A stretch of 62,789 nucleotides of DNA, the filler included, from Folioceros fuciformis (Eukaryota), in the NCBI GenBank assembly GCA_049999805.1. It is 5 parts of 4 records of this genome, joined end to end, with 100 filler letters (N's around TTAATTAATTAA, not from the genome) between each part and the next. Parts side by side here need not be neighbours in the genome. Positions count along the whole stretch, not along the records: positions 1 to 28,555 come from JBNGIO010006246.1; 4 more parts are not named here. One strand, 5' to 3'. The notes beneath the pieces are model-generated. The model made no database searches. It was not told the DNA's origin and saw only the letters and a list, made by a program, of their open reading frames with translations. The translations under genes and the position numbers were made by a program. This document shows, piece by piece, positions 2 through 34,569 of the stretch. How positions within the stretch are numbered: position 1 is the first letter of the stretch; each line of letters starts with the position of its first letter.

Positions 2-1258
2 GAGCAGGAACGGGAAAGGGAGCAGGAACGAGAAAGGGAGCAGGAACGTGATCGTGAAAGGGAGCGAGAGCGGGAGCGGGAGCGGGCCGAGGATATCAAG
101 GACAAGAAGAAGGCTGCGGCCGTCAAAGACGTGGCAAAACGAACGCTCAAGGCTCCCGCCAAGGGCCGTTCCGATGAAGTCCTCAAGAAGAGTGCGGGTA
201 AGTCTCGTAGACAGGAAGAGAGGTCGGAGGACGAGAAGGGGGAGGAGAAAGAACTGCTCCGGCGTTTGATGGCACGTAACTCCAAAAAGGATGCATCCTC
301 CTCCGTAGACAAGGGGAAAGAGAAAGAAAAGGAGAAGGTTGTGCCCCTTGTCAGGCCTTCAAGCGGGATGACGGCCCCTGCGTCAGACTCAGAGGATCAA
401 GGACCCAAAGAAGAACCTGAATTAGAGCTGAAGTGTGGTTGCACAAGCAGCAAATTTGGTGACACCGTCGGTCTCGTGAAGGTTTACAAGTCCGGGGATT
501 TCGTTCTGTTCTGTGAGTGCAAACCGGGTTGCGCAGAAGGTAAAATGAAATGCATCTCGTCGGGTGGTTTCCAGTTGCGACGCGTTAGGACTTGGCTTTC
601 GGTACTGACGTTTGTTTCTCGCTGTTCTGGTTTCAGCTGGTATTGCATTAACTCCCGCAGCCTTTGAGAGGCATGCGGGGCGTGGATCCTCCAAGAAGTG
701 GAAGAATACCATCTGGGTGATGATGGGGGACGACAAAGTTCCGATTGCCAAGGTGAAAGCCCTGGAGCCTTATTACAAGAAGTATAAGGTGCGGAAGAAC
801 CAGAAGGTGGTTCCTACTCCAGGGGCAGTGGCACCAACGGTAATTCATCGGGACGAATTCGTGAGATGTTGTAAGTGTCAGAAGGAAAGGAGGTTCAAGC
901 GGAGGAACAAGGAGGAATGCAAGCTTTACCACGACGCAAGCTTGAACCGGAAGTGGGAGTGCGCCAACTTGCCGGACGAGAGGTAAGCAGCTATGTTTCA
1001 ATCAGTGCGTGGTGAAAGGTTGCTAGGAGACTGGGACGCTGATCTCCCTGGTGCAGGTATGCCCGGTGCGGGGAGGATGAGGAAAGAGAAGTCCGGCGGG
1101 CTCTCAAGGGGTGCACTCGTGTCCGGAATTGCCCCGGCTGTTTTGAATGCGTATGCATCGGGTGCCTGACCTGTAGATTCAGCAGCTGCAGCTGCCGCAC
1201 CTGCACAGAGTTCATGGCTAATGCCCCGAGCTCTGGCAATGCGCAGGGCTCTGCTTGA
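2..1258 (+). CDS. ULT1: ULTRAPETALA-like SAND-domain / Cys-rich protein, 5'-partial, 3 exons visible (2-539, 637-982, 1057-1258)
   Basis: Spliced translation gives CGCTSSKFGDTVG...LTPAAFERHAGRGSSKKWKNTIWV (SAND), IHRDEFVRCCKCQKERRF and GCTRVRNCPGCFECVCIGCLTCRFSSCSCRTC, all ULT-family motifs. GT-AG introns at 540-636 and 983-1056; TGA at 1256-1258; frame is open from the window start. Confidence 0.9.
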
Positions 1259-10691: not shown

Positions 10692-11497
10692 ATTCAATTT
10701 GTGAACAAGTTGTCATCAACCACTTTAGATGGGTGGGAGAGATTCAATTTGCAAGCAAGTTGTCATCAACCACTTTAGATGGGTGGGAGAGATTCAATTT
10801 GCAAGCAAGTTGTCATCAATCACTCTAGAGTCATCAACCACTCTAGATGGATGGCAAGACCTTGTGATAGCACCAAAGTCCTGCAAGACGAACAACCACT
10901 CTAGATTGTGCAAGCACCAAAGTCTATAAGTATTCTAAGAGGAACAACCACCAAAGTCTAAAAGTATTCTAAGAGGAACAACCACGTCCATAAGTATTCT
11001 AAGAGGAACAACCACTCTAGATTGTGCAAGCACCAAAGTCCATAAGTATTCTAAGACGAACAACCACTCTAGATTGTGCAATTACCAAAGTCCATAAGTA
11101 TTCTACTCTGCAAGACGAATAACCACTCTAGATTGTGCAAGCACCAAAGTCCAATTACCAAAGTCCATAAGTATTCTACTCTGCAAGACAAATAACCACT
11201 CTAGATTGTGCAAGCACCAAAGTCCATAAGTATTCTAGCCCCTGCAAGACGAACAACCACCCTAGATGGATGGCAGAGGGTTGTGCAAACACCAAAGTCC
11301 ATAAGTTGTGCAAACACCAAAGTCTGTGCAAACACCAAAGTCCATAAGTATTCTACCCTGCAATAACAATAACCACTCTACATGGGTGGCCAAAGTCCAT
11401 AAGTATTCTAGCCTACAAGACGAACAACCGATCTAGATGGATGGCAGAGGGTTGTGCAAGCACCGAAGTCCATGAGTATTCTACCTTGCAAGACGAA
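10692..11497. repeat. Compound tandem/minisatellite array (50-bp unit followed by ~50-75-bp units)
   Basis: caagttgtcatcaaccactttagatgggtgggagagattcaatttg x2-3, then many copies of aaccactctagattgtgcaagcaccaaagtccataagtattcta. Confidence 0.8.
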
Positions 11498-12401
11498 ACC
11501 TATTTTCATCCGCGTTCCTCCTAAGACTTAGGGGCCATGGCAAGGACTTCTCAATATTCATCAAGTAGTGTGCCAAGATCAAAGCCAAAGAAATGGTGTT
11601 CTTCTTCTTCCTTTTCGGTGGCCTTCTTTCAACAATGCATACCCATTTTTGTTGAAAAGAGCATTGGCCAATGCGGTTTTAAGAACAACAACAAATGTAG
11701 GTTAAGCAACTTCTTCAGCATAAGGTAGGTAGATCTTTTGTTATTCCACATTAAGACATTTTGGGAGTAGTTGATAGTTTTTTAGAATAACGCTCAAAAG
11801 GGCTAGTACCGTTTTTACCTTTTGCCCGACTTGGATTGTTTCTCCAATCTCAGGAGTAGATGGGACTTTCATCTCTTTTTCAATAATAAAAAATAACCTT
11901 TATTCATATCTTTGTAAGTTCAAGTAACTTTTAATTATCTCTATAGCTACAACCTTATTTGCAAAGTTTTATTCCTTATTGTTATTTCATTTCCACTACC
12001 AAGGCAATGTTGGATCTTAAAAAATCTCATTTCAATGACAACGTCATAGATTTCCTTCACCTATGATTAAAAGTATATGTAAGGTTTCCATTTATTATTA
12101 AATAATGAAAATCTTTTGATGGTCATTTCAAACTTCCTTGTATTTTGTGTAGTAGTAATCAAGGAGGAAGGTTGCTTAGTTAAGAAACTAGATATATTAT
12201 CTAATGCACCTATTTCTTCCTAATTTTTTTCTTCTTTTCCCACAAGTGTAAATAAAGAGAAACTAAATATTAGAAATATAGTGGCCTTTTTCTTCGATTC
12301 CTTTGTGAATTTGCTTGCGTGTATAGGTTCAAATATAGAAACTATGAATTTTTTAAAAGAGTAAAAATTTGGACTATATCTTGATTTCAGTTCATACACA
12401 C

Positions 12402-12722
12402 TATGTTTTAAGATTCGTCCCGATTGACAGTGTTTTAAGATTCGTCCCGATTGACAATGTTTTAAGATTCGTCCCGATTGACAGTGTTTTAAGATTTGTC
12501 CCGATTGACACAGTGTTGTAGGATTTGTCCCGATTGACAGTGTTTTAAGATTCGTCCCGATTGACACTCTGTTTTAGGATTCGTCTTGATTGACAGTGTT
12601 TCAAGATTCGTCCCGATTGACACAGTGTTGTAGGATTCGCCCCGATTGACATGGCTGTAAGTGAGGGCTCCCGATTGACACAAGTGTTGTAGGATTCGTT
12701 CCGATTGATAGTGTTTTAAGAT
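12402..12722. repeat. ~28-30-bp tandem array (core GATTCGTCCCGATTGAC), left part; interrupted by the Gypsy insertion
   Basis: tgttttaagattcgtcccgattgaca repeated ~10 times head-to-tail; the array resumes at 22334. Confidence 0.85.
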
Positions 12723-12833
12723 TGTCGTGCTCCCAGCATCAACTGTTGTGAGCACTTCAGTTCAGTCCATCAGCTGCAAGGCTAATGTCTTGTGCACTAA
12801 GAAAAAGAGAACAAAAAGATTGTCCATGCCTTC
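12723..12833 (-). repeat. Terminal repeat segment B2 (111 bp), 3' end of element
   Basis: Near-identical (4 substitutions) to 13306-13416. Confidence 0.9.
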
Positions 12834-13303
12834 AAGATGTTAGGCTGCTCATATGCGCCATAGCTCACTCCGTGTCGTAAAGCTGCGAAAAGGGGACTGC
12901 CCTCGTCGGGCTGCCCAGAGTTGGTAAGTCACTAGCGGGATGCCACCATCTCCCTCACACCGTCAATCTGCACCAAATAGCTTGTCCTTTCATAGACGGC
13001 TAGTGAACAACAAAAAAAGGTTTAGGTCTTCCGGTGGTTCCTCTCATGAGCGACTTCGACAATTGCCTTTTTCCTCGCCGTGTTCGATTTCTTTGTTTGG
13101 TGCCCCTCCAAGCCGTTTCCCATGGGCTGTATGAGCCCACGTGCTTCTAGTGGGCAAGTAGCCATGGCTAGTATTTTAGCCATTTACGTAATTTAGGTTG
13201 AGTTAGTTTAGTCACCTATTATCTTATCAACTGAATTCCACTAAACTATCACGTTCACCATGACGCTCTACTATAAGTCCATTTTTGCCACAATTTCACG
13301 ACA
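12834..13303 (-). repeat. LTR segment A2 (470 bp)
   Basis: Same length as 21864-22333, with roughly a dozen substitutions. Confidence 0.9.
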
Positions 13304-13305
13304 GC

Positions 13306-13416
13306 TGTCATGCTCCCGGCATCAGCTATTGTGAGCACTTCAGTTCAGTCCATCAGCTGCAAGGCTAATGTCTTGTGCACTAAGAAAAAGAGAACAAAAA
13401 GATTGTCCATGCCTTC
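13306..13416 (-). repeat. Repeat segment B1 (111 bp), directly after the polypurine tract
   Basis: Copy of 12723-12833; separated from A2 by the dinucleotide GC (13304-13305). Confidence 0.9.
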
Positions 13417-13424
13417 CCCCCCCC
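13417..13424 (-). promoter_or_regulatory. Polypurine tract (G-run) of the Gypsy element
   Basis: C-run on the + strand (G8 in element sense) lies ~40 nt after the integrase/PHD stop and abuts segment B1. Confidence 0.75.
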
Positions 13425-13465
13425 AGCTGATGGATGGGCTGAAAGCATGAAGAGCACGACAAGAG

Positions 13466-14760
13466 CTACACTCCTGGGCTGGTCACACCTGCTGCGTCCG
13501 GTTGGCACTTGGGACAATACCAAAGTTGCTCTGGTACATGGGTAAGTGGTGGCTGTAAGAGGAAAAGGTGGAAACCCCCATTGCAGCCATCACAAAGTAA
13601 CATGAGGTCAGCATCATCTGTGCGTTGACAAACCTGACAAGGGTAGTCTGCTGGTGGAATCCAATCTGTTGTGACAATAGAAGGATCAAGATTGGGCAAG
13701 TGGCAAGGTGCGCAATTCTTGGTGTGGTCAGTGGTGATCCGACCATCTGAGCCTTGCAATACCAGGATGCCATTAGGCTTGACCTCCTGAATCCGTAACA
13801 CATGCCGACTACTAGAAGTGTCCAGGGTATCTGAGGTCTGCCTCTGGAGGTAAACAAAGTCTCCTACCTGGAACTTCCTGAGCTTGGGCCTAAAATTGCC
13901 TCCCCTAGTGTGTGCATAACGAAGGGTATCCCTATGCTGGGCAATGTGCAAGTTAGCCATTGCCATGGGCATGGCCTGTTTGAACAAGGCTGCCCTGTTC
14001 CCTATCACACGTGCCCATGTAGCTGCATCATCCAGCTTGACAACTTCTAGCATTTGTTTAGCTATAGAACTAAGTGGAATTGGTTCTCTGCCAAACAAGA
14101 GGAAGTAAGGGGAAAAATGGGCAAGGGCAGCATGCTTGCTCATGCGGTAGCCCATTGCAATATATGGAAGCATGAGATCCCAATCTGTTTTGGGTTGTCG
14201 GAGACACAGCTTGCGAAGCCCCTTCTTCATAGTCTGGACCATGTGCTCGGCTAAGCCATCAGCCTACGGGTGGTCCCGGCTAGTTCTCCTGTGGTCAATA
14301 AGGGCTGCATCCATTAGATCCTGGAATTCTCCTCGAAACTCAGAACCATGATCTGTGTGTGAGACACTCTGCGCAGCCACCAAACCTACTAAGCACACAT
14401 TGTAGGAAGGCTTGTGAGGTACTCCTAGAGGTCTTGTCTGGCAGGGCCACTACCTCCACCCACTTGCTGAAGTATTCCATCATGATCATCGCATACAGGT
14501 TGCCTCGTGGAGACTACGGGAGCTCACCCATCAGGTCACATGACCATCTGAAGAATAAACCCATGATGGGCAAAGGGTGCAACTCTAGGTGCTGCATGGT
14601 GAAGGAAGCCTTGACACGGTCGCATTGCTCGCAACAGGCTACTCGTTCCTTCACTTGTTCATCCATTCGATTCCAGTAGAAATAGGGAGTCAACAGGTTG
14701 TAGGTGCGTTTGACCCCAAAATGACCCATGTCATCATGCACCCTACTGATGAGGGCAGCA
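13466..14760 (-). pseudogene. Gypsy integrase (HHCC zinc finger, DDE core) with C-terminal PHD finger (13505-13639); stops and a frameshift
   Basis: HDDMGHFG...CCEQC; WSCDLMGELP, EYFSKWVEV, TDHGSEF, DGLAEHMVQTMKKGL, SPYFLLFGR; CQVCQRTDDADLMLLCDGCNGGFHLFLLQPPLTHVPEQLWYCPKC. Confidence 0.9.
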
Positions 14761-15079
14761 CGATCTGCTGGTGGGGGTACCAATCGCTCCACTCTTTGAG
14801 CCTGTTGATGGATGAGGTGTCTGTCCCGCCAACAATACTTGATAGCCCGTTGGTGAACTCGTTCCCTTGTGGCCGCAGTCCAAGTGGGGTCCTCTCTACC
14901 TGTCTGCACATACTGAAGGGTAGCTGGATCCTCCCAAATATCCTTGGAGGATTGCTGAGCTGCACCTAAAGGCACCTGTCCCAAGCAAGTCATGGCCACC
15001 AAAGCCGATACTGCAAGCATTGTGCTGTACTCTTCATCTTGGCGAGCTCCGTTAGTATCCACACAACTACTGTCAGGAT

Positions 15080-16480
15080 TTCGTGACAAGGTATCGGCAT
15101 TCTGGTGCTTCACTCCTGGCCGATGTTCAACCTGGAATTCGTAATCTTGAAGGATCATGGCCCAACGTGCGAGCTTGCCACTGAGCTTAGTGTTGGTCAT
15201 CAGCCACTTGAGTAGTTGATGGTCTGTCACTAGTGTGAACTTCTGACCATATAAATATGGTCTGAAGTGGCACACAGCCCACACAGCAGCGAGGCATTCA
15301 CCCTCGTAGCTGCTATAGTTGGCTTCATCTCAATTGTTGCTACGCGAGGCGTAAGCAACCACACGCTCACAACCTGCTTCATCTTGTTGAGCCAGCACAG
15401 CCCCTAGCCCTAGACTACTCCAATCTGTGTGAACTACAAAGGGCTTATTAAAATTGGGTCTAGCCAACATTGGTGCAACTGTCAACTCCAGCTTTAAGGT
15501 GTCAAAAGCTTGTTGTGCCTGCTCTGCCCATGTCCACTCTATATCCTTGCGCAGCAGATCATTAAGAGGCTTGGCAATCCTGCTGAAATTGGGTATGTAT
15601 ACTCGATAGTAATTGCATAACCCTAGAAATGAACGCAGGGCTGATACGGTGGTCGGTTCCTTAACCTGCATAATTGCCTGAACCTTGGCAGCATGTGGGG
15701 TGACACCATTGGGGACACTTCTGTGACCCAAATACGCCACAATGCTCATGCCAAACTCACACTTGGCTGGGTGGCACGTGAGTTGTGCCTTCCGTAATCT
15801 TACAAACATGGTCTTCCAGGTGTACCAAATGATCCTCGAAGTCCATGCTGTGGACTAGCACATCATCAATGTAGCACATGAGATAGCCGGCTCCAGCTAG
15901 TACTATGTCCATGATGCACTGAAAGGTCACTAGCGCATTCTTGAATCCAAAGGGCATCACTAGCCATTCCCATAGCTGTTGAGAACCATGGAAGGCTGTC
16001 TTCTTGATATCTTCAGCTGCCACTGGGACCTGGTTAAACCCTTGTCGTAGGTCCAGCGTGGAGAAGAACATAGACTGTCCAAGATGGTCAAAGATCTCCT
16101 CTGGTGTCGGCATTGGGTACCGATCCTGGGCAGTTACTGCATTGACAGGCCTATAGTCGCCACACATCCTCTTCTCAGTCCACAAACCTTGGCTGTCCTT
16201 TTTGGGTGGCATCACAATGGCTTCAGTGTAGTCACTATTAGAGGTACGTATTAGGTTTGCCTCATACAGTTCCTTGCATCTTGCATCCACCATGTCCCAT
16301 TCCGTCTTGCTCAACCTATACCGTTGCCTGTATACAGGCTCTTGGGTGGTAAAGTTGATGCGAAAGGTTGTGACATTGCACCTCTTGAGCTCATGCATGG
16401 AAAAGGCAAAACAGTCCCTGTACCTAAGCAGCAAGTTACGAATGCGGTCCTGTTGCTTCAGACTGAAATCTGAGCCCATC
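15080..16480 (-). pseudogene. Gypsy reverse transcriptase and RNase H; frameshift near 15810, stop at 15330
   Basis: RMCGDYRPVN, YPMP, LDLRQGFNQV, MPFGFKNA, YIDDVLVHS, KCEFG...YLGH, LRSFLGLCNYYR, HTDWSSLGLGAVL, TDHQLLKWL. Confidence 0.92.
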
Positions 16481-16739
16481 TTCCACGGGAAATTAACAGT
16501 AGACAGCTTGGGTGTAGCTCCTGGATCCTCCTTTTCTAGCCTTGGCTTGATCAGATGCTGAGTAAACAGTACGTGATGCCAATGCTGCGTACTCCACCCC
16601 CGCAGCATCTAGCCAGAAAGGCAGTTGTGTGTATCCTGGGAATGGGAGGTGAACAGCATCTCCAAGGCAGATGCTAGCAAACAAGCCTGGGAGTAGCATG
16701 GGAGTGATATGAGTGTGCAGCTGAAAGGCAAGGCACAAA

Positions 16740-17685
16740 CTCACCAACCATGTGATGGCATGGAGGTCCATGGCTCGTCCTAGAGTGCCCTTGCGCTGCC
16801 GATTGGTGACAGTAGGGGCCGCTGTACTATGGGTTTGAAAACCCATGAGTCACTCTCGCTCCTCAACTGTTGGTTCTTCCCACCGTTGCGTTTCAGTATT
16901 CAATAATAAGCCAGCTCCTTCACCTCTGTAAGCAAATGAACCCGGAAAGCTGACCAGCGTGGGCAACGTCTGCCTTGGCTGACCTGGAATGTTGGTCTTG
17001 AACCAAGGGGCTTTCTCACTGGCCACCACAGGTCGTGGCCTATGGTAGTTCTCCAATACAGTACAAAGTTGCAGCCCTGGATCCCTGCTAGTGTTCCAGA
17101 GAGCCAAGTCCAACACGGAGACAGGGACCAAATTGGTCCAGTAGTTACAAAGCCTGTGGGCATAGCTACCCACCTGCACAGCATCCATGAGGAATGGTGG
17201 CCCTGCAAAATGTCGCACAATGGCCATATCCTGCTGCACCTATGGCCGGGTATCAAATTGGGCTGGTGTGTTCTCGAGCAGGTATGCACATTGAGGGTTA
17301 CTATCTTGTGCCCATGCCAAGATTTGTTGGAGATCTCTAAACAAACCAGAACGTGGATCTATCAACCCTGCACCTACCCCAGCTTGAGAGAATCCTTGGC
17401 ATTCCCAGCCAGCTATGACCATGTCGAAGGGGCCCAAGGCTTGGATGTGGCCCTGCTGTATATACTGGACGTCCTGAGGTAAGGACGTGAATGTATTAGC
17501 AAGAGCCTCAACTGACAGTTGCTGTGGGAAACGATGTTGTAGACCCTGCAGCCGAAATGCAGCAATTTGCCTGGCAACGGGGTCTTTGTCACAGTAAAGG
17601 TACCTTTGAATGCTCAAACCTGTCAAGAGCAAAGCTTCTAACCCGGTACAAATACCACCAAATAGTTCAACAACTGTAAGGGCTA
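16740..17685 (-). pseudogene. DNMT3-like C5 cytosine DNA methyltransferase domain inside the Gypsy polyprotein (two in-frame stops)
   Basis: Motif I VVELFGGICTGLEAL, motif IV HIQALGPFDMVIAGWECQGFS, motif VI YLLENT, motif VIII region PFLMDAVQVGSYAHRLCNYWTNL, motifs IX-X EERE*LMGFQTHST...RKGTLGRAMDL. All in the same frame as gag and protease. Confidence 0.9.
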
Positions 17686-18049
17686 GCGCAGCCGGTGCCC
17701 ATATGATGACAGTATTGTCCACATAAGATGTGGGACAAGATGATAGAGTCCCGGCTTCCAACAATTGTTGCACCTTGCTGACCTGCTCTTGTGCCTTGGT
17801 CAGCAATGCCTCTGCCTGCTCTGGACAGTCAGGCTGAACTAGAGCTTGCTGCAAACTAGTACACCTCACTTGAGCCTCTGCAACATTGGTCTCTAGATGC
17901 TTGTCCACTTGGTATGTGTCTTGGACAAGCTCCACCACATTGCTACTTTTGATACCAACTACAGCTGGGCTTTTCACCAAAGTGGCTACATCAACCTCCA
18001 CCCAGCCATGCAAATCTAATGGCAGATGTGCAATGCGACGACCTCCTTG

Positions 18050-18420
18050 CTTCCAGTCAGGCCTATAGAAGGCTTGCTCAGTCCAGTTATCCACACCAAC
18101 TCCTGGTGGAAAGAGGAACTCTTGCCCCAACAGCAAATCATAGTTGGTGGCTGTGGTTACCACGTAGGGCAAGGACAATGTCATGGCATCTGGCGTGCCC
18201 GAGTTCAAGGTGATGTCCAGGGGTTGGACTGTCTCACCACAGACTGGTTCAACAGCCCCGGATGCCGTCCTGATGTTCCAGGGCGAGGTATGCAGTGCAT
18301 CACCCTGAAGATGCAACCTTGCAGCTAGAATCTTCCCAAGGAGTACTGGTTGGGCTCCCGTGTCTAGCAACACCACTCTGGGTGCATACCCATTGATTGT
18401 GACGTGCCCACAACGATTGT
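18050..18420 (-). pseudogene. Retroviral-type aspartic protease of the Gypsy element
   Basis: VTING...VLLDTGAQPVLL active-site motif and downstream YDLLLGQEFL. Confidence 0.85.
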
Positions 18421-18640
18421 CAACAACTGCATTGCTGACACGAGCCTGTAGTCGATTGGTGGACTGCACTCGCGGTTGGCTGTCAACTCTCTCAGCTAGT
18501 TGTACAGTGTAAGAGCCATTGCAGTGACTCGGTGCAGTCTGCCCACCTGTAGAGTGTGACATCGCTGTTGGCAGCACCCATTGTGAAGTGTATGCTTTAC
18601 CCAGGCTAGGGTCAGCAGATGCAGCCGTGGCTTCTGCAGT

Positions 18641-20725
18641 TTAAAGAACTTCCTTCAGCCTGCTGGTCGTGATGCCCATGTCCTGCAGTGTGAAAACTGG
18701 CACCTGAGTTAGCTTGGCAGCCAGTTGTGTGATTGTGGTGGTTTGAGGTAAGAGATACACATGCTTTGGTGTTGGTATGCTATGGCCAGGTGTTCTACTC
18801 GTGGGCAGTTGTTCCACACGCAGCGTTGAGTGCTCCTGGCCTCGTTCCGGAATTGCAGACCCCGGTGGCAGTGGGGCAAAGGACTTTGGCATGGTAGCCC
18901 TGGCCCCTCGATTCTTGGTGAGAGGCCCTAAGGCAGTTGTTGTTGTTCCCATGACCACCTGTAAATTCTGCCCCACCCATGTGGCTGGCAACTCCACCTC
19001 CATGCTGCTCTCACCAATTCTGTCAACCATACATACTTGGTGTGCTGGGCCATAATCCTCATCCTCTTGTCCTGGTACCAACTTCACCGCATTGGCTGGT
19101 TTGGAAGAGCCAGTGATGCTGGATAGGTTGGCTGTCAAGACTCCAAGTTGAGCTGTCATGACAGCCATGGAAGCCTCAAGGGAGCTGACCTTGTCAGCAG
19201 TGGCGGCTGCCTTAACCTTGGCCTTGTCACGCTGCTGTTTACTGCGGGACAACCCAACAGCGCTCCTCATTCCTCCTGCTTCCACACTGGCAATTGTGGC
19301 TCCTGCAGACCCTACGGTACCAATCTTCTGGTATCTTCGTTCGGGGTGCTTTTGGAAGCACACAGTAACCACGTGTCCATTCTTCTGGCAATGGGTGCAG
19401 TAGAGTCCCTCCGGAGGACACTTGCATGCAGGGGACATGTGCTCAGGGCTGCCACAATGGTTACACATGGCTACCACTGCTGCCGCTGGAGTTGCTGCTG
19501 AAGCTACCTTAACTGGCTTAGTCTGACCAGCCTTGGCTCCTACACCTGTGTTAGCTGCCCCCTTGCTAGAGAACATGGACTGGTAGTGCGTGAAGGCCTT
19601 GGAATGCCGAGAGGCATAGGCCGAAAAGGCTACCTACTTCTTCTCAACTTCTTCATGCACTTGCTCCAAAGTATACTTGTCCCCATATTTGTCCACCAAG
19701 GATGTAACCAGCTGGAAATGAAACAACGGGTCTCCTTCAAGTGCAGTCAAAAACCTTTGCGCTGCTTCCTGATTTGTTAACATCCTTGTACCTTCCCTCA
19801 ATTTCTGTAGCCTCCTGAAGCACATCTAGACTGTCTCCCCCTTTTTGCGAGCAAAGGCAGCAAGTTCTGCAAATTTCCCTGGGGTCTTCAGTGGGAATGC
19901 CCTCTCCAAAATAGCTAGGAACTCCTCCACTGGGTTCAGGTACTTGCAGGTGTGTAGAAACTCTTGCACACCAGCTGTGGCAGTAGCCCGCTCTGCTAAT
20001 GTCAAATTCACCACCGTTGGAGGTGGTGTGGTGGCGGAGATGGTCTTGGCTACAATCTCCACCTGATGGTCGTTAATGGCTGCTGCCAGTTTGGCATTAT
20101 ATGCCAACTGTAGAGCCGAGTGATGGGCTGGGTTAGGAGTGGCAATTGTGCCCAACAGCTTAGCCTGGTGAGCCTCGTACAAATCCAATGCCTCATCTGC
20201 TAAGTAGCTGGACAACTGTTCAAACATGTACTGGTGGTTGTAGGCAGCACCATGTTTGAACTTCACCCTGCTGATGACTGCATTGATGAACAAGCGAAAG
20301 TCCCTTAAGGATTGGGTGCTTGGTCTGCCTGAGAAATTCTCAGGCCTAAGCCTTGATGAACCACCCTCCATGGTGTCTGACCCTTTAGACAGGTCACCCT
20401 GGCCTTGCCCTACACCAAGGACAGACCCAGCAAACCCCAGATGTGTTTGCTGTGACCTCACAAATGACTGTTGTGAATAGAGAGACCCTTGTTGTTCAGG
20501 TTCCTCGTGACAAACTAGCTGACCCCCTAAATTTGAGCTAGTTGGCACAACAATCTTGCCCAAGTCTAAGAGGGGTGACCAGCTGGGTTGCCCAACAAAT
20601 GTTGCTGGTTCCAAGTCCTCTCTCAAGTCTTCTTCACTTGCAAGTTGGCGTCGTCGAGCTACCCATCTTCTCCTCCGCTGTGCACACTCCGGTGATGCCC
20701 TAATAGGAGTGTCTCGACTCCTCAA
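18641..20725 (-). pseudogene. Gypsy gag with two CCHC zinc knuckles; in-frame stops at 19826, 19634 and 18641
   Basis: RPENFSG...YLADEALDLYE capsid-like segment; CNHCGSPEHMSPAC and CTHCQKNGHVVTVC. ORF pieces starting at 20725, 19825, 19576 and 18577 share one frame. Confidence 0.8.
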
Positions 20726-21842
20726 TCGGTAACGTAGGCTCGCCTCTTGCTAATTTGGTTGCATACCCCATGCACCCCTGTTACACCTACAGCTGGTGCT
20801 TGGCAAAAACAGTGAGGTGCTGTGTTGCAAATAACAGCACCGGGCCTGGGGAAGTGACTCTCGCTGGGACGCCACACACTGCTTCAGCCGTACCCACAAT
20901 ACCTTCAGGCTTCTACTGGCTGTTGCTGGCCCCCAAATCAAACCCCTGTTCTCAAAGGCAAAATGAGCCCCTAAACATGTGGTTCCAACAAACCACGCGT
21001 GCCTCTCGACAAATGTCACCAAGAAATGAGGGTTAGCTCCTCCCAAATATCTGATGGTGGCCTCCCTTCGTGCCGCGTTTGGTCGCAACTTATAGCTGCC
21101 CCCCACAGTCTGAATGAGTGTGAGCAAAGCTCAGCTACTCCCTATCCAGATAATCCTAGTTTGGGAAAATCCTACCCCTGGAAAATCTCAATTTCCTAGG
21201 CTTGCTGGGCAGATGTAGCTGTGAAAGAAAGCAAAGAAACACAACTTTCTTGGAGTCATGAGGGGACAAGAAATCTACCCCTCCCCAAAGCATCCATGAT
21301 CAACCATGTCCCTCTTTCTGCAGTGATCAAAATGTTCGCCTCTTCAAGACAAATCTGTTGGTATATAGATTCTAAGGCAGACAAGCGGAATTGCGGCCGT
21401 TGTGTCCTCCTTAAGTTTGGCGTCCACACCCTCAAACCCCAAACCCGAGGCTTAAGTGCGTGAAATGCTGAGCGACTTGCTGGGGCTGCCTCGATGTGGT
21501 CTCTTAGCGGTGCCTTAGCTGCCAGCTCTCCTAAGCCCTGTCTATAGAGCCTTGGATCAACATGTAGTTGCTGCGAGTAGAAAGGTAGTTGCTACAACAC
21601 TGAGCATGCACATTCCAGACTCACGGCTGCTACAAAGGAAGAGAGGGATTCTCCAAGGCTGCTGCCTGAATGCACATGTCTGGCGCGCCCCTAGAGTCCC
21701 TACAAACCCTAAATCCCTAGCAATGCAAAGGGAAAATGACAGACTTCACACAAACGGGTCTGGATGGGTGCTCCACAAATGCTGCCTTGCTGTAGCTGCT
21801 TGGCTGCGCTCTAAGAGGTCCTCGCCCGTGCCCTCATTGCCT

Positions 21843-21863
21843 GAAAAAGGCAGTTGTCGAAGT
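21843..21863 (-). promoter_or_regulatory. Putative self-priming primer-binding site
   Basis: Directly abuts the inner end of the 5' repeat; exact 21-nt reverse complement of 22083-22103; lacks the TGG start of a tRNA PBS. Confidence 0.7.
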
Positions 21864-22333
21864 AAGATGTTAGGCTGCTCACATGCGTCATAGCTCACTC
21901 CGTGTCGTAAAGCTGCGAAAAGGGGACTGCCCTCGTCGGGCTGCCCAGAGTTGGTAAGTCACTAGCGGGATGCCACCATCTTCCTTACACCCTCAATCTG
22001 CACCAAATAGCTCTTCCTTTCATAGACGGCTAGTGAACAACAAAAAAAGGTTTAGGTCTTCCGGTGGTTCCTCTCATGAGCGACTTCGACAACTGCCTTT
22101 TTCCTCGCCGTGTTCGGTTTCTTTGTTTGGTGCCCCTCCAAGCCGTTTCCCATGGGCTGTATGAGCCCACGTGCTTCTAGTGGGCAAGTAGCCATGGCTA
22201 GTATTTTAGCTATTTACGTAATTTAGGTTGAGTTAGTTTAATCACCTATTATCTAATCAACTGAATTCCACTAAACTATCACGTTCACCATGACGCTCTA
22301 CTTTAAGTCCATTTTTGCCACAATTTCACGACA
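21864..22333 (-). repeat. LTR segment A1 (470 bp), 5' end of element
   Basis: Direct repeat of 12834-13303; begins TGTCGTG in element sense. Confidence 0.9.
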
Positions 22334-22465
22334 AGATTCGTCCGGATTGACACGATTGTGAGAGAGGGCTCTCGATTGACACGGCCGTGAGTGAGGGCTC
22401 CCGATTGACACCACTATGAGGGAGGGGTCCTTATTGCCACCGCCATGAGGGCTCCCAATCGACAC
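22334..22465. repeat. Right-hand continuation of the CCCGATTGAC tandem array
   Basis: agattcgtccggattgacac, ctctcgattgacac, ctcccgattgacac: same core as 12402-12722. Confidence 0.75.
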
Positions 22466-23506: not shown

Positions 23507-25201
23507 TCAGAGCGACAGTCTCCTTCGCACTCTTCGGGTCTGCGGTCGGACCATGAGACCATACTCGAGCTCCTCCGGAGCAACATCCGAAACATGGGCC
23601 TCCTGCTGAGGCTGAGGCGAAGTTGGAGGAAGTTGGTTTTGCTGCGCAGCTTCCGGTGGGATGTCCTCCACTGGCCTGTTGAGCTGGTGCATTCGGTTTC
23701 TCACAGCCTGGATGGAGTCTCGCCAGTGGGGCAAATATTCTCGCACCCTTGAGCACAGGCTCCACCAAGTACCCGACCACATGTTCCCAGAGATGGTTCC
23801 AGAGTAGAACCCGAAAGCATTGCCCCTGGAAGCTCTGCGGCTTGTCGCCTCCGCAGAGGACCAGGTGGTGTCCTCTCTTGCTGACTCGTGTTCTTCACCG
23901 TCCTCGTCTTGCTCATCAGCATTCCGCAAGTAGTCGTGACTGGTGTCGCTCGCATCTGAGGCCGTGTCCTCGTCGTAGTCGCTGCCTTCCATATCCACAC
24001 TCCGCCTGTTGATCGTGGAGCGCGCTATGCTCTGCTCGTCGTCCACGATGGCGCTGCCGTCGAAGCCCTCGGGCTCCGGGTAGTCGGGATCGCTGTCCGT
24101 AGCCTCAACGATTTCCTGGTACACCTCCACGCGATCGGCGCGGTTGTCTGGATCCGGATCCGGATCCGAAACCGGGTCCGGAGCCGGGTCCTGATGCGTC
24201 TCTTGTTGGACAGCTCCGATCTCCTCCACTCGGCCGGGTGCAACCGCAGGCGCAGCGTCTCCCCCGATCTCACCGACCGTGCCGCCAGCTTCATCCACCT
24301 CCTGTTGCGGCTCGGGGACGTCCTGCAGTGGGCTAAGTGCCGCGTGCGAGCTATCGCCTGCTGCTTCCTCATGCGACTCCACGGTCGGCTCTTGCCCGGA
24401 TCTCCTGCTCTCCTCGGTCTCGGCCTCTTCTCCGACACGGGATCCCTGAGACGTGTTTCTGGCTTCCCTACTCCTCCTGCTCGCGATCGCTTCCTGAGCT
24501 CGTTGCCTCGCCCTGGATCTGGCTCGCCTATGCACTCGGCTCCGGACGGCTCCCCTCCGCGACGGTGCCACCTCGATGCCTTCCGCCTGGCTCTTCAAGA
24601 ACCGCCGCTCGATGGACCAGCACAGGCTGATGTCTTGCGGCTGGTTCACAATGCTGGACTCCACCTTGTCTCGCAGCCTGTCCTTCCAAGGCGAGAGTTG
24701 GAACCAAGAGCTGCACGCAGCAATCGGATCAGGCTTCACCACGGCAGAACAGCCAAGATCCGCACGCACTGCATTCGCACTCTCCAATCTCGCGCACGAC
24801 GCCGGCCCTTGGCAGAAACGCCGAAACTGCTCCCATGCCTGCCTCACACGGAGTAACTGGAGCAGGAAGCACCAAACCGGCTGCGATCCAGGACGCCACA
24901 CAGAATCTCGCTCCTCCTCCGATGGCTCCAGTTCCGACACAAGCCGATCGAACAGAGCAGCTTTGCAGAGCAGGCAGATCTCGCACCGGTACCGTGCTCG
25001 CGCTGTGTTCGAAGCTCCGCCTTCGCACCGCTGGTGCAGATTAGGTTTTCCTCGAATGCCACAACACGGACACACGTCTTCCGCACGCCGCTGCCTCCAA
25101 GCGCAGCTGCGATGCACCGCGTCTCCGCACGGCTGCCATCTCTCCCAGCGCTGCCCCGCAACCGGCTGCTTGCATATCTGGCACACGCATTCCTGATCCA
25201 T
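23507..25201 (-). CDS. Intronless protein with N-terminal RING-like zinc finger and long acidic/low-complexity C-terminus
   Basis: Long GC-rich ORF; first ATG at 25201 gives MDQECVCQIC-x13-PCGDAVHRSC-x10-CPCC; D/E/P-rich tail. Confidence 0.6.
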   Translation of the reverse strand: MDQECVCQICKQPVAGQRWERWQPCGDAVHRSCAWRQRRAEDVCPCCGIRGKPNLHQRCEGGASNTARARYRCEICLLCKAALFDRLVSELEPSEEERDSVWRPGSQPVWCFLLQLLRVRQAWEQFRRFCQGPASCARLESANAVRADLGCSAVVKPDPIAACSSWFQLSPWKDRLRDKVESSIVNQPQDISLCWSIERRFLKSQAEGIEVAPSRRGAVRSRVHRRARSRARQRAQEAIASRRSREARNTSQGSRVGEEAETEESRRSGQEPTVESHEEAAGDSSHAALSPLQDVPEPQQEVDEAGGTVGEIGGDAAPAVAPGRVEEIGAVQQETHQDPAPDPVSDPDPDPDNRADRVEVYQEIVEATDSDPDYPEPEGFDGSAIVDDEQSIARSTINRRSVDMEGSDYDEDTASDASDTSHDYLRNADEQDEDGEEHESAREDTTWSSAEATSRRASRGNAFGFYSGTISGNMWSGTWWSLCSRVREYLPHWRDSIQAVRNRMHQLNRPVEDIPPEAAQQNQLPPTSPQPQQEAHVSDVAPEELEYGLMVRPQTRRVRRRLSL

Positions 25202-25594
25202 GACCGTGCCCGTGACTCGATCCCCGCAACCGAGTCCGATCCCGTTCCCGGCAGTCCCACACGGTGGGCGCCAATGCGCCTCGTCTCCCAGGCGCCACAA
25301 GCCAAGCCTTCAAGAGGCAGCCGCTTCGGTTGCCCTCGATCCTCGTCGTCGTCCCCATGACGGTCCTCGGCCCGTGGCCTACCCCTCCCTGCGCCATGGC
25401 AGCGTCGGTTCGCGGTTCACTTGAAGGAAGACAGCAACCGCCAAAAACCAGTTTTCGTTGTCTCGGTCGGCTGGCTAAAACACCAGCGGCCACCTAAACC
25501 GTAACCGAGAAACGCAATAGCTACCCAAAAAGTTGACTTTATTCCGAAGCGCACACAAGAGGCCTTGCCTTGGAGGAAGACGATGAGACGGAGG

Positions 25595-28555: not shown

Positions 28556-28655
28556 NNNNNNNNNNNNNNNNNNNNNNNNNNNNNNNNNNNNNNNNNNNNT
28601 TAATTAATTAANNNNNNNNNNNNNNNNNNNNNNNNNNNNNNNNNNNNNNNNNNNN
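28556..28655. other. Artificial contig linker (44N-TTAATTAATTAA-44N)
   Basis: Six-frame-stop spacer, identical at four places in the window. Confidence 0.97.
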
Positions 28656-31600: not shown

Positions 31601-32269
31601 AAAGGAAAGAAACTCTTCGATGGCCAGGACACGTCTGAGGAAGACAATGCCGATCCCATCTCCAGCGCCTCCGGGGAGGCCGACGAGGAAGAGGAGGAGG
31701 AGGACGAGGAGCGCGTCGTGCTGGCCAACTTGAAGACCGCCCGCACTGCTCGCCAACGCGCAGTGAAGGCCAAAACGAGCAACAAGGCAGCCGCAACTGC
31801 AACCGCGGCTACGTCTACTACCCCATCCACGAGCGAAGCCGACCACCAGCAGAGATCCGACAATCCTGTATCCCACACAAGAAATGACTTCGCCAATACT
31901 GCAACAGAGGAACAGCTTCCTCGAGGCTCCGCCGCTGCATATCAAGAACAGGACCAGACTGTTAGCCTCCAGGAGGAGCCGTCCTCGAATGGCGACCAAT
32001 CGGTCGACGCCCTCTCTCCTGTTTCATCAGGGCACGCTCATCAGCGACCCGGCACGTGGACTGAAGAGCGGCTCCCTGGTAGGTATGCCCGGAGGCGAAC
32101 CCGGAGCCGCGAAGACGACGACGGAGCATCCCCTGCTGATGATGTTTCTGGTGGACAAGAAACGTCCCTCTTGAAACAAACCTCCTCTACGGAAGAAGCT
32201 GATCGTGGGAAGAGCATATCTTCTGGGAAAGAAGGGTCTCCTCCTGCCAGCATGTCCGCTGGAGACTAG
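28656..32269 (+). CDS. SCC3: Cohesin subunit SCC3 / stromalin (STAG), intronless, 5'-partial
   Basis: Single ORF of >1180 codons with STAG/SCD motifs: LFDQYLMD, PRNFRHVATLVGLQL, FMHRYRD...IR..C...IGSWI..YP..FL...YLKYLG..LNDK, RMVELADD; acidic tail. Confidence 0.95.
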
Positions 32270-34168: not shown

Positions 34169-34569
34169 CCGATCTCCTCATATCCGAGCTTTACAGAGAG
34201 GTGGCAGTAGTACACAGACCTAATCCCAGCTTTTGATTGAGTGTCTGTTTCCACGGGAGAAGCATATGAGTCAAATGAAAACAGACTACTTCTGACTGCC
34301 GGCAACGGGCGAGAACCGGCGGTGGTGTAACAGTTCCGCGGACAACCCCGGGCCCCACAGTGTGAAATGGAAACAGGTCGGCCATGGTTCGCAGACACCC
34401 CGGATAACATGTATATACTTGCTGCCTGGAATCGTCATGGCTTGCCTTCGTATATATCCATGGCCGCGGCAAGCACGATGCAGGAGCGCCGCGAGCAACC
34501 GGAGCAGGAGGACTTCCAGTTGCTCCAGGAGCACAAGCCGATTGTAGCCGCTTTGCCTTCTCCATTGCC

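What the first reader, a model, noticed from the sequence alone, without database searches (positions are those of the whole stretch)
16740..17685. DNMT3-like C5 cytosine methyltransferase embedded in pol between protease and RT
Seen: motifs I, IV, VI, VIII, IX and X occur in canonical order and in the gag-PR reading frame, so the domain is part of the polyprotein rather than a passenger insertion. Segments HIQALGPFDMVIAG, MDAVQVGSYAHR..YWTNL and ERE.LMGF...LGR closely parallel DNMT3 catalytic domains. The catalytic Cys and the motif VI Glu-Asn are kept, but the usual Pro-Cys reads GWEC. Known: retrotransposon-encoded DNMTs were reported in dinoflagellates and charophyte algae (de Mendoza et al. 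2018). Inference: this extends the phenomenon into a land-plant genome, and the enzyme would be packaged with RT where it could methylate nascent cDNA.
Basis: partly seen in the sequence, partly recalled or inferred. Interest (0 to 1): 0.9.

Follow-up and report, generated by a model that had tools for sequence, protein, structure and literature searches.

The report
Retrotransposon carrying its own DNA methyltransferase
A dead copy of a jumping gene that encodes its own DNA-methylating enzyme, of a kind so far described only in one green alga, sits here in a plant-lineage genome and belongs to a large, widespread family.

Summary
Window 16706-17680 (minus strand) encodes a DNMT3-type C5 cytosine methyltransferase domain. 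It lies in the gag-protease reading frame of a 9.6-kb Ty3/Gypsy-type element (12723-22333).

Evidence for the domain:
- Pfam PF00145 scores above its cut-off.
- The best solved-structure match is DNMT3A (E 8.6e-10; family profile 4.8e-24, against DRM 1e-10).
- The predicted fold matches DNMT3A/B/C (Foldseek E 4e-18).

The closest described relative is KnitGypsy-Dnmt3 of Klebsormidium nitens (37% identity, E 4e-58). It has the same protease-DNMT order and the same DIRS-like split direct repeats.

The window copy is dead: it carries stops, frame breaks and lost conserved residues. The family is large: 607 clusters at E<=1e-30, and many diverged copies in the host's own sequencing runs. In a sister family the DNMT evolves under purifying selection like RT.

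Glu-Cys in place of Pro-Cys is a family trait, not decay.

Named relatives include a liverwort (Calypogeia fissa), Closterium and, in a second architecture, Scenedesmus. The host's genes group with bryophytes, but no outgroup was available, so "land plant" is likely and not proven.

Enzymatic activity and cDNA methylation remain inference.

Verdict: a new member of a known kind, of moderate interest.

The parts
12723..22333 (-). Whole Gypsy-DNMT3 element (9611 bp), layout A1 - gag-PR-DNMT-RT-RH-INT-PHD - B1-A2-B2
   Evidence: Self-BLAST and boundary reading; domain scans
21864..22333 (-). Repeat A1 (5' terminal repeat), starts TGTCGTG
   Evidence: 97.2% identical to A2 over 470 nt, 13 differences
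18641..20749 (-). gag, in phase with PR-DNMT but interrupted by stops; two CCHC zinc knuckles at about 19355-19462
   Evidence: ORFs read directly; no Pfam hit at E<=0.01; weak tblastn match to gag of P0208
18113..18403 (-). Aspartyl protease (LLDTGAQ)
   Evidence: PF13975 E 2e-7 and PF13650 E 3.1e-7, aa 80-176 of ORF 17240-18640
16706..17680 (-). DNMT3-type C5 cytosine methyltransferase domain (P0001 aa 41-365)
17387..17410 (-). Motif IV, GWECQGFS: catalytic Cys kept, Glu in place of the usual Pro
   Evidence: Glu in 87 of 151 relatives, Pro in 44; no Pro in any of 80 loci
17240..17242 (-). In-frame stop inside the DNMT domain, after motif VI
16850..16852 (-). In-frame stop inside motif IX
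15811..16206 (-). Reverse transcriptase (YIDD), in a different frame from the DNMT
   Evidence: PF00078 E 1.6e-18; frame break between 16493 and 16608
15141..15530 (-). RNase H
   Evidence: PF17919 and PF17917 on two adjacent ORFs
14607..14777 (-). Integrase zinc-binding domain (H2C2)
   Evidence: PF17921 E 2.6e-17
14269..14543 (-). Integrase catalytic core, broken by a frame change (approximate limits)
   Evidence: tblastn of P0208, whose rve domain is aa 1967-2061; no Pfam rve hit on the window ORFs
13505..13639 (-). PHD finger at the integrase C-terminus; one Cys that relatives keep is Leu here
   Evidence: PF00628 E 8.6e-11; present in 34 of 80 related loci and in type B polyproteins
13416..13424 (-). 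Run of 9 G directly before B1, a polypurine-tract-like site
   Evidence: a similar G run (5-8 G) before B1 in 5 related loci
13306..13416 (-). Repeat B1
   Evidence: 96.4% identical to B2 over 111 nt
12834..13303 (-). Repeat A2
12723..12833 (-). Repeat B2 (3' terminus), ends CACGACA, the inverted complement of the A1 start
22334..22337 (-). Target-site duplication ATCT (5' side, element orientation)
12719..12722 (-). Target-site duplication ATCT (3' side)
12348..12722 (.). 27-29-nt satellite array into which the element inserted; it continues beyond 22334

Best explanation
The stretch is the DNMT3-type cytosine-C5 methyltransferase domain of a dead copy of a Ty3/Gypsy-type retrotransposon. The element is of the 'Gypsy-DNMT3' kind first described in Klebsormidium nitens. 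Shown: one polyprotein frame encodes gag (two CCHC knuckles), protease, DNMT, RT, RNase H, integrase and a C-terminal PHD finger. The element ends in split direct repeats (A1 ... B1-A2-B2) with inverted termini TGTCGTG/CACGACA, and it inserted with a 4-bp duplication into a satellite array. The DNMT keeps the catalytic Cys, the motif VI Glu-Asn and (in relatives) the motif VIII Arg-x-Arg. Across a sister family it evolves under purifying selection about as strong as on RT. Inferred: in live copies the enzyme is translated as part of Pol. It therefore travels with RT and integrase, where it most likely methylates the element's own newly made DNA, or the fresh insertion, at CG. New copies would then carry a host-like methylation state from the start. 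The PHD finger on the integrase tail would read a histone tail to steer integration. This copy can do none of this: it has two stops in the DNMT, three frame breaks in Pol, further stops in gag, and has lost a conserved Arg (motif VIII) and a PHD Cys.
For: Domain identity: Pfam PF00145 above its cut-off. DNMT3A is the best solved-structure sequence match, E 8.6e-10. The family profile scores DNMT3A 4.8e-24, DNMT3C 3.5e-21 and DNMT3B 1.5e-20, against DRM 1.2e-10, M.HhaI 1.9e-9 and DNMT2 2e-4. The fold matches DNMT3A/B/C at E 4e-18. Integral to Pol: same frame as PR. PR-DNMT or DNMT-RT order in 23 of 176 relatives, including an intact 2188-aa CCHC-PR-DNMT-RT-RH-INT protein and K. nitens GAQ93235.1. 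The window's DNMT is 37% identical to the K. nitens one, E 4e-58. The split repeats match the legend of Fig. 4c of PMC5890265 and recur in 5 of the 17 fetched loci of 12.9 kb or more. Selection: in 80 sister-family loci the median pairwise dN/dS of the DNMT falls from 0.62 to 0.12 as dS rises. RT does the same, from 0.61 to 0.25. Cys, E-N, G-S and H-R are invariant or nearly invariant across 18 proteins from Closterium, a liverwort and unnamed sources. Not a single-copy oddity: 365 contig pieces in one DNA run and 292 in another (both of one sample) of the same organism lie on the element, in all identity classes. They include pieces 87-98% alike over the DNMT. CpG observed/expected is 0.38 in the element, against 0.76-0.96 in three neighbouring host-like ORFs and 0.52-0.59 in two Copia elements. 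This fits long-term CG methylation of the lineage.
Against: No activity is shown for any Gypsy-DNMT3 enzyme. The K. nitens domain gave no methylation in yeast, which the authors call inconclusive because human DNMT3B also failed (PMC5890265, section 10). The Pro of the Pro-Cys motif is Glu here and in most relatives, so the chemistry may differ. The substrate (cDNA, integrated DNA or RNA) and the timing are pure inference. CpG depletion is equally expected from host silencing and rests on three elements in one window. The dN/dS figures come from a sister family (42-50% identical to the window's DNMT in the tblastn matches) of unnamed origin. The pairs are not independent, some loci are duplicates, and stop codons were skipped. 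Selection on the host's own copies could not be measured. 78 of the 80 sister loci carry stops in the domain, so most copies everywhere are dead.
Confidence: 0.6

Rival explanations
1. The DNMT is active but works in the nucleus after integration. It would methylate the new insertion and its surroundings, or other copies. The effect would be self-limitation of copy number or camouflage as methylated gene-body-like DNA, rather than methylation of cDNA inside the particle.
For: The conserved PHD finger on the integrase tail points to action on chromatin. The family lineage is strongly CpG-depleted. The authors of PMC5890265 raise slowed retrotransposition and effects on chromatin at the insertion site as options (section 11).
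Against: Nothing here separates this from cDNA methylation. The PHD sits on integrase, not on the DNMT, and protease cleavage sites are unknown.
Confidence: 0.2
2. The domain is a conserved non-catalytic module: a pseudo-enzyme that binds DNA or S-adenosylmethionine. It would be kept for a structural or targeting role in Pol.
For: The Pro of the Pro-Cys motif is replaced by Glu, Asp, Ser or Cys in 92 of 151 relatives, and the Pro/Glu state changes at least 12 times on the tree. The K. nitens domain showed no activity in yeast (PMC5890265, section 10).
Against: The nucleophile Cys, the motif VI Glu-Asn and the motif VIII His-Arg are invariant or nearly so over very distant hosts. That is hard to explain without catalysis. 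The K. nitens members keep the canonical Pro-Cys.
Confidence: 0.1
3. The enzyme methylates RNA (the element's genomic RNA or a primer), as DNMT2 does, rather than DNA.
For: PMC5890265 (section 11) raises RNA methylation for the LINE-borne DNMT. The altered catalytic loop could go with a changed substrate.
Against: The profile is far closer to DNMT3 (E 4.8e-24) than to DNMT2 (E 2e-4), and the fold matches DNA-bound DNMT3 structures.
Confidence: 0.05
4. The DNMT is a neutral passenger: a host DNMT3 fragment captured once and carried along without function.
For: The window copy and 78 of 80 sister loci are riddled with stops.
Against: There are 607 clusters at E<=1e-30 in hosts from chlorophytes to a liverwort. 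The position in Pol is fixed within each of two clades. dN/dS is well below 1 and tracks RT. Catalytic residues are invariant.
Confidence: 0.02

Closest known systems
KnitGypsy-Dnmt3 of Klebsormidium nitens (de Mendoza et al. 2018, PMC5890265; protein GAQ93235.1)
   Same: A DNMT3-type domain with non-rearranged motif order inside the Pol of a Gypsy-type element. The order is CCHC-protease-DNMT. The repeats are DIRS-like split direct repeats (legend of Fig. 4c). The DNMT domains are homologous over their full length, 37% identity, E 4e-58. Purifying selection is reported there (Ka/Ks < 0.2) and seen here in a sister family.
   Different: It lies in a different DNMT clade, on a different branch of the type A side of the tree. 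Motif IV reads Glu-Cys here and Pro-Cys in the K. nitens clade (4 of 4 rows). The host is different: K. nitens is not among the best 120 hits for either of two host genes. The element appears to be in many copies in this host, whereas the paper stresses few copies in K. nitens. Whether the K. nitens element carries the PHD finger could not be seen: the figure and supplements are not held, and the word PHD is absent from the text.
Host DNMT3 (DNMT3A/B/C of mammals; DNMT3 of bryophytes)
   Same: The catalytic domain is the closest among solved structures by sequence and by fold, with motifs I-X in canonical order.
   Different: There is no PWWP or ADD domain (no Pfam hit). It is embedded in a retrotransposon polyprotein. 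Glu replaces Pro in motif IV. Identity to the solved structures is 19-23%.
SymbioDIRS-Dnmt3 of Symbiodinium (same paper)
   Same: A DNMT3-type domain inside Pol and split-repeat termini. That domain was shown to methylate CG de novo in yeast (section 10).
   Different: It is a DIRS element, described in the paper as only distantly related to Gypsy (section 9), and an independent capture according to the authors. That DIRS elements use a tyrosine recombinase is recalled, not taken from any passage read. Here there is a DDE-type integrase with H2C2 zinc domain, TG..CA ends and a 4-bp target duplication.
Type B green-lineage elements, RT-RH-DNMT-INT-PHD (e.g. 'pol' KAF8056149.1 of Scenedesmus sp. 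PABB004)
   Same: A homologous DNMT domain, the same PHD finger after integrase, and the same Pro/Glu variation in motif IV.
   Different: The DNMT sits between RNase H and integrase instead of between protease and RT. The two layouts fall on opposite sides of one well-supported branch of the DNMT tree (one change; 99% SH-aLRT).
Chromoviruses (Ty3/Gypsy with an integrase chromodomain)
   Same: A histone-reader module on the C-terminal tail of integrase.
   Different: PHD fingers in retrotransposons are already in print (passage in PMC6673714).

Membership tests
C5 cytosine methyltransferases (Pfam PF00145) | Profile match above the curated cut-off | tested here: met
   25.4 bits against a cut-off of 22, E 1.2e-5, covering motifs IV-VI only. 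Relatives score up to 58 bits.
C5 cytosine methyltransferases (Pfam PF00145) | Motifs I, IV, VI, VIII, IX, X in canonical order, with the nucleophile Cys and the motif VI Glu | tested here: met
   C134, E176 and N177 are present here and invariant or nearly so in 18 relatives.
C5 cytosine methyltransferases (Pfam PF00145) | Pro-Cys dipeptide in motif IV | tested here: not met
   Glu-Cys here. Of 151 relatives, 87 have Glu, 44 Pro, 5 Asp/Ser/Cys and 15 were unread. That Pro is near-universal in the superfamily is recalled, not tested.
C5 cytosine methyltransferases (Pfam PF00145) | Arg-x-Arg of motif VIII | tested here: not met
   The window reads Arg-Leu-Cys. The second Arg is kept in at least 90% of 18 relatives. 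This is a loss private to decayed copies.
DNMT3 family | Catalytic domain closest to DNMT3, not to DRM, DNMT1, CMT, DNMT2 or bacterial enzymes | tested here: met
   Profile against PDB: DNMT3A 88 bits, DRM 44 bits, M.HhaI 40 bits, DNMT2 23 bits; no chain named DNMT1 or chromomethylase at E<=0.01. Foldseek's listed top matches are all DNMT3. No phylogeny against plant DNMT3, DRM, CMT or MET1 could be made, because no such sequences were on hand.
DNMT3 family | Non-rearranged motif order (unlike DRM) | tested here: met
   Collinear alignment to DNMT3A from motif I to motif X.
DNMT3 family | N-terminal reader domains of host DNMT3 (PWWP, ADD) | tested here: not met
   No such Pfam hit in any ORF of the element. 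The only reader is a PHD finger after integrase.
Gypsy-DNMT3 retrotransposons (KnitGypsy-Dnmt3) | DNMT3-type domain inside the Pol ORF of a Gypsy-type element | tested here: met
Gypsy-DNMT3 retrotransposons (KnitGypsy-Dnmt3) | Sequence homology of the DNMT to the K. nitens element, and the same domain order | tested here: met
   37% identity, E 4e-58. GAQ93235.1 reads CCHC-PR-DNMT. Same side of the A/B split in the tree.
Gypsy-DNMT3 retrotransposons (KnitGypsy-Dnmt3) | DIRS-like repeat structure instead of plain LTRs | tested here: met
   A1 ... B1-A2-B2 here and in 5 of 17 large related loci. For K. nitens only the figure legend was read.
Gypsy-DNMT3 retrotransposons (KnitGypsy-Dnmt3) | Purifying selection on the DNMT across copies | tested here: inconclusive
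   Met in a sister family from metagenome contigs. Not measurable for the host's own copies, because read laying returns no contig sequences and no genome is held.
Ty3/Gypsy LTR retrotransposons | PR-RT-RH-INT order, H2C2 plus DDE integrase, TG..CA ends, short target duplication | tested here: met
   The 4-bp duplication ATCT is verified against the uninterrupted satellite unit.
Ty3/Gypsy LTR retrotransposons | Two identical long terminal repeats | tested here: not met
   The termini are A (470 nt) at the 5' end and A+B (581 nt) at the 3' end, with a further B before A2.
Chromoviruses | Chromodomain at the integrase C-terminus | tested here: not met
   A PHD finger instead, PF00628 E 8.6e-11.

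The most novel reading that the evidence does not exclude
Gypsy-DNMT3 elements are not a Klebsormidium curiosity. They would be an old lineage spanning the green plants, in two layouts (PR-DNMT-RT and RH-DNMT-INT, both with an integrase PHD finger), that survived into land plants and multiplied recently to many copies in this host. Their widespread Glu-Cys catalytic loop would mark a changed substrate or chemistry, for example action on single-stranded or RNA:DNA products of reverse transcription. New copies would then be methylated before they reach the chromosome. The split repeats with an LTR-circle-like B1|A2 junction would reflect a replication cycle intermediate between the LTR and DIRS types.
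Probability: 0.25. Interest if true: 0.75.

Novelty: new member of a known kind. Interest (0 to 1): 0.45.

Why it matters
Transposons that carry the host's own silencing enzyme turn the usual arms race around. In the papers I could search, Gypsy-DNMT3 is documented only for Klebsormidium nitens. The full-text searches found no report for a land plant. A 2026 preprint and a 2025 paper speak only of 'streptophytes', citing the 2018 work.

The data here add four points:
- The family is large: 607 clusters at E<=1e-30.
- It occurs in a named liverwort, in Closterium and, in a second layout, in a chlorophyte.
- It is constrained like RT.
- Most members carry Glu-Cys, not Pro-Cys, in the catalytic loop.

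The last point may bear on why the one family member tested in yeast, itself of the Pro-Cys type, gave no activity. It gives a concrete choice for the next assay: test both loop types. If the host is a bryophyte, there would be a land plant in which transposon-encoded de novo methylation could be studied next to the host's own DNMT3, DRM, CMT and MET1 systems.

Tried and rejected
**No result**
- No whole genome is held for the window. No census of intact copies and no dN/dS on the host's own copies was possible.
- Read laying returns differences, not contig sequences.
- No RNA holder is listed for the stretch. Run X2 is labelled RNA only by guess. Its 9251-nt contig, about 97% like the element, therefore says nothing about expression.
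- Rfam gave no match at gathering score in the whole window.
- Look-ups in earlier findings by place and by sequence returned nothing.
- The first related-loci query (alignment A1) was too diverse. It was repeated with the six closest sequences.
- The first Pfam call on five long proteins exceeded the size limit. It was repeated with four.

**Host placement**
- The SCC3 and hexosaminidase trees have no algal outgroup, because only the best 120 hits are returned.
- The window's position is next to liverworts and mosses, on a long branch. This is what a hornwort-like lineage would give (recalled phylogeny), but it is formally also what an outgroup would give.
- A literature look-up on ULTRAPETALA distribution was not followed up.

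**Rejected readings**
- A host DNMT3 gene: there are no introns and no PWWP or ADD domains, and it lies in frame with PR.
- DRM: the motif order is not rearranged, and DRM scores 44 bits lower.
- The window being K. nitens itself: only 37% identity, and K. nitens is not among the host-gene hits.
- A tandem pair of elements as the source of the B-A-B arrangement: B is the 3' internal flank, not the 5' one. The same arrangement recurs in five related loci, and the A-B junction appears in high-depth contigs.

**Not seen**
- Fig. 4c and Supplementary Fig. 13 of PMC5890265 (architecture drawing and motif alignment). They may already show the PHD finger or the motif IV state.

**Not done**
- No complex prediction was run, because no binding claim is made.
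Full report
**What is there**

The finding lies on the minus strand. Stop-to-stop ORFs and Pfam scans give, in element orientation:
- gag, 20749..18641, with two CCHC knuckles read directly from the translation
- aspartyl protease, 18403..18113
- a C5 cytosine methyltransferase domain, 17680..16706
- reverse transcriptase with YIDD, 16206..15811
- RNase H, 15530..15141
- the integrase H2C2 zinc domain, 14777..14607
- a broken integrase core, about 14543..14269 (placed by tblastn with an intact relative)
- a PHD finger, 13639..13505 (PF00628, E 8.6e-11)

gag, protease and the whole DNMT are in one phase. The 466-aa ORF 17240-18640 holds both the protease and DNMT motifs I-VI.

**Is it a DNMT3-like enzyme domain?**

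The stretch was read with X at its stops (P0001).
- It matches PF00145 above the curated cut-off (25.4 against 22 bits).
- Among all solved structures it matches DNMT3A best (E 8.6e-10, collinear from motif I to motif X).
- A profile of 18 family members scores DNMT3A 4.8e-24, DNMT3C 3.5e-21 and DNMT3B 1.5e-20. DRM scores only 1.2e-10, M.HhaI 1.9e-9 and DNMT2 2e-4. No chain named DNMT1 or chromomethylase appears at E<=0.01.
- An AlphaFold model built on that alignment has mean pLDDT 78.8, above 90 over most of residues 41-360. It superposes on DNMT3B, 3A and 3C catalytic domains with Foldseek E 4e-18 and TM 0.78-0.83 normalised to the target.

**The element and its ends**

Self-comparison gives a 470-nt repeat at 12834-13303 and 21864-22333 (97.2% identical, 13 differences). 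It also gives a 111-nt repeat at 12723-12833 and 13306-13416 (96.4%). In element orientation this reads A1 - internal - B1 - A2 - B2.
- A starts TGTCGTG and B ends CACGACA, an exact inverted pair.
- The B1|A2 junction therefore looks like the two element ends joined.
- A run of nine G abuts B1.
- The element is flanked by ATCT on both sides inside a 27-29-nt satellite. The uninterrupted satellite units show that ATCT was duplicated.

So this is an integrase-type insertion of an element with split direct repeats. The legend of Fig. 4c of de Mendoza et al. 2018 (PMC5890265, section 9 read in full) says of KnitGypsy-Dnmt3 that the structure of its repeats is that of a DIRS retrotransposon while its domains are typical of Gypsy. 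The same A1...B1-A2-B2 layout recurs in 5 of the 17 related loci of 12.9 kb or more that I fetched. These show a similar G run (5-8 G) before B1 and the same kind of termini; one further locus shows only A1/A2 and eleven show none. High-depth contigs from the host's own runs carry the A-B junction (table 5). That split direct repeats of this form are known from Ngaro and PAT-type DIRS elements is recalled, not tested.

**State of this copy**

It is dead.
- The DNMT has two in-frame stops (17240-17242 and 16850-16852).
- gag has several more stops.
- Pol changes frame three times, in the intervals 16493-16608, 15757-15854 and 14263-14514.
- The second Arg of motif VIII, kept in at least 90% of 18 relatives, is Cys.
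- One Cys of the PHD finger that relatives keep is Leu.
- Each frame break lies close to an indel difference between the window copy and the high-depth contigs of the family (table 4). The breaks therefore look private to this copy.

**Is the domain only in this copy?**

No.
- In two DNA runs (one sample) of the same coded organism, 365 and 292 contig pieces lie on the element. In X1 they spread over all identity classes: 72 at 99% or more, 121 at 95-99%, 86 at 90-95% and 86 below 90%.
- These include pieces over the DNMT that are about 97-98% and about 87-89% like the window.
- Summed depth over the internal part is in the hundreds, against about 6 in the first bin. The tool warns that this is not a copy number.

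**Relatives elsewhere**

A word-based search found 20 proteins, the best 51% identical. Named ones come from the liverwort Calypogeia fissa (protease plus DNMT) and from several Closterium strains. The Calypogeia protein lies on a contig of 66,576,599 bp, the same length as the contig that carries that species' SCC3.

A full HMM search of 1.84 billion cluster representatives found 17,990 proteins at E<=0.001, 3,038 at E<=1e-10 and 607 at E<=1e-30. Many are polyproteins of 1,000-3,456 residues. Cluster look-ups of 20 of them gave these names:
- K. nitens GAQ93235.1
- three Closterium strains
- 'pol' of the chlorophyte Scenedesmus sp. PABB004

I located domains in 176 of these proteins with local phmmer.
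- 23 have PR-DNMT or DNMT-RT order (type A, the window's order).
- 103 have the DNMT between RNase H and integrase (type B, usually followed by a PHD finger).
- 48 show the DNMT only, and 2 show no DNMT.

Pfam confirmed both layouts on eight proteins. They include an intact 2188-aa CCHC-PR-DNMT-RT-RH-INT protein and the K. nitens protein (CCHC-PR-DNMT).

A quick maximum-likelihood tree was built from 151 DNMT domains (LG+G4, SH-aLRT only, midpoint root for drawing).
- The two layouts need a single change.
- All 92 type B rows lie in one clade (99%). All 16 type A rows lie on the other side (99%).
- The window is sister to an unnamed protein (99%).
- The window's DNMT is 37% identical to the K. 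nitens one over 327 residues, E 4e-58.

**The Glu-Cys loop**

GWEC is not decay.
- In the first 18-protein alignment most sequences read GWECQ.
- Among the 151 tree rows, 87 have Glu before the Cys, 44 Pro, 5 Asp, Ser or Cys, and 15 could not be read. The Pro/Glu state changes at least 12 times on the tree.
- In the 80 metagenome loci none has Pro. All read WEC or a one-step decay of it.
- The K. nitens clade (4 rows) has Pro-Cys.
- The Cys itself, the motif VI Glu-Asn and Gly-Ser/His-Arg of motif VIII are invariant or nearly so.

**Selection**

One scan of metagenome contigs gave 425 confirmed relatives, of which 80 loci were kept. They form a sister family, 39-50% identical to the window's DNMT and about 65% identical to the Calypogeia protein.
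- 78 of the 80 have at least one stop in the 321 codons compared.
- Pairwise Nei-Gojobori estimates, with stop codons skipped, give a median dN/dS for the DNMT of 0.62 at dS 0.02-0.1. This falls to 0.44, 0.36, 0.30 and 0.12 in higher dS bins.
- RT in the same loci gives 0.61, 0.39, 0.33, 0.29 and 0.25.

This is the pattern expected if recent divergence is neutral decay of dead copies and older divergence arose in active lineages under constraint. The DNMT is constrained about as much as RT. Caveats: the pairs are not independent, some loci are duplicates, their origin is unnamed, and this is not the host's own family. 34 of the 80 loci also carry the PHD finger just before B1.

**Methylation footprint**

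CpG observed/expected is 0.38 in the element, with TpG 1.52 and CpA 1.31. It is 0.76-0.96 in three neighbouring host-like ORFs and 0.52-0.59 in the two Copia elements of the window. The copy is young (2.8% A1/A2 divergence), so most of this depletion was inherited from the family lineage. That fits long-term CG methylation, whether by the element's own enzyme or by the host. With three elements in one window it is only a hint.

**The host**

Two long ORFs beside the element encode a complete cohesin SCC3 (1221 aa) and a family 20 hexosaminidase (581 aa) without introns.
- Their best hits are unnamed proteins at about 70% identity.
- All named hits among the best 120 are land plants, at 44-59% identity, with bryophytes, lycophytes, ferns and gymnosperms slightly ahead of angiosperms for SCC3.
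- In quick trees the window and its unnamed relative join liverworts plus mosses for SCC3 (97% for the split from vascular plants). They join liverworts for the hexosaminidase (96%).
- Without an outgroup this position cannot be told apart from that of a close algal outgroup, and the branch is long.
- The element's own nearest relatives are an unnamed protein (53% identical) and the sister family that stands near the liverwort's protein, not those of Closterium or Klebsormidium. This points the same way if inheritance was vertical.

I put about three in four on a land plant, probably a bryophyte lineage without named proteins in the database.

**How it most likely works**

Shown: a DNMT3-type domain with its catalytic residues conserved over very distant hosts, translated as part of Pol, under constraint like RT, always together with an integrase and mostly with a PHD finger.

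Inferred:
- The enzyme is released or kept fused next to RT in the particle.
- It methylates the element's cDNA or the fresh insertion at CG.
- The PHD finger guides integration.

This is the reading offered by de Mendoza et al. 2018 for DIRS elements (section 11). They showed CG methylation in yeast only for SymbioDIRS-Dnmt3. KnitGypsy-Dnmt3 gave none, which they call inconclusive (section 10). The rivals are post-integration action, a non-catalytic module, RNA methylation and a neutral passenger. They are weighed in their own sections. Only the last is contradicted by the data.

**Literature seen**

- PMC5890265: abstract, passages, and sections 9, 10 and 11 in full. Its figures and supplements were not seen.
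- bioRxiv 10.64898/2026.05.21.726589: passages. It lists 'streptophytes (Gypsy-DNMT3)' among known cases.
- PMC12344493: passages. [quoted passage not shown]
- PMC6673714: passages. PHD fingers in retrotransposons are known.
- PMC10952607 and PMC11982613: passages, nothing relevant.

Searches for retrotransposon + DNMT3 with Klebsormidium, liverwort or hornwort, and for the family names, found no report of such an element in a land plant within the held library. That library lacks most subscription journals.

**Verdict**

The element is a new, dead member of the known Gypsy-DNMT3 kind. The wider results are worth more than the copy itself: the size and spread of the family, its two layouts, the Glu-Cys loop, the constant PHD finger, and the split repeats with integrase-type insertion.

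Noticed in passing
database proteins P0146, P0155, P0161, P0184 and 99 others: A second, more numerous layout of the same DNMT family has the DNMT between RNase H and integrase, followed by a PHD finger. One named example is 'pol' of the chlorophyte Scenedesmus sp. PABB004. In the DNMT tree the two layouts are separated by one well-supported branch. The papers I could read do not mention this layout for green plants.
   Followed up: partly
window 12723-13424 and 21864-22337; loci L003, L016, L036, L043, L080: The termini TGTCGTG...CACGACA are inverted complements split between repeat A and repeat B. The internal B1|A2 junction looks like a joined-ends (LTR-circle-like) junction, and a G run abuts B1. 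It is unexplained how a DDE-integrase element regenerates such ends.
   Followed up: partly
window 28604-32269 (+) and 32432-34177 (-): A complete SCC3 cohesin subunit (1221 aa) and a complete family 20 beta-hexosaminidase (581 aa) each lie in one uninterrupted ORF, 160 bp apart and on opposite strands (convergent). These genes are recalled to be intron-rich in land plants. This suggests either an intron-poor genome or retrocopies.
   Followed up: no
window 49611-51606 and 53981-55976: Two 1996-nt direct repeats are 100% identical and flank a Copia-type RT (RVT_2). This is a very young Ty1/Copia insertion or an assembly duplicate. A second Copia-like stretch runs from about 56300 to the window end.
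   Followed up: no
window 46832-48265 (-): A separate integrase-plus-tail fragment is related (31-36% at protein level) to the integrase-PHD part of the DNMT-bearing families, with no DNMT beside it.
   Followed up: no
window 2-667 (+): An open-ended ORF has an ULTRAPETALA1-type SAND domain (PF23292, E 1.1e-13), a plant-specific chromatin factor.
   Followed up: no
window 10822-11497 and 12348-12722, 22334 onward: There are two different tandem-repeat arrays: units of about 59-73 nt, and units of 27-29 nt. The DNMT element is inserted in the latter.
   Followed up: partly
window 23507-25309 (-): A 600-aa ORF with no Pfam match, GC 0.62 and CpG observed/expected 0.96, lies directly beside the element. 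It is rich in Cys/His patterns near its N-terminus.
   Followed up: no
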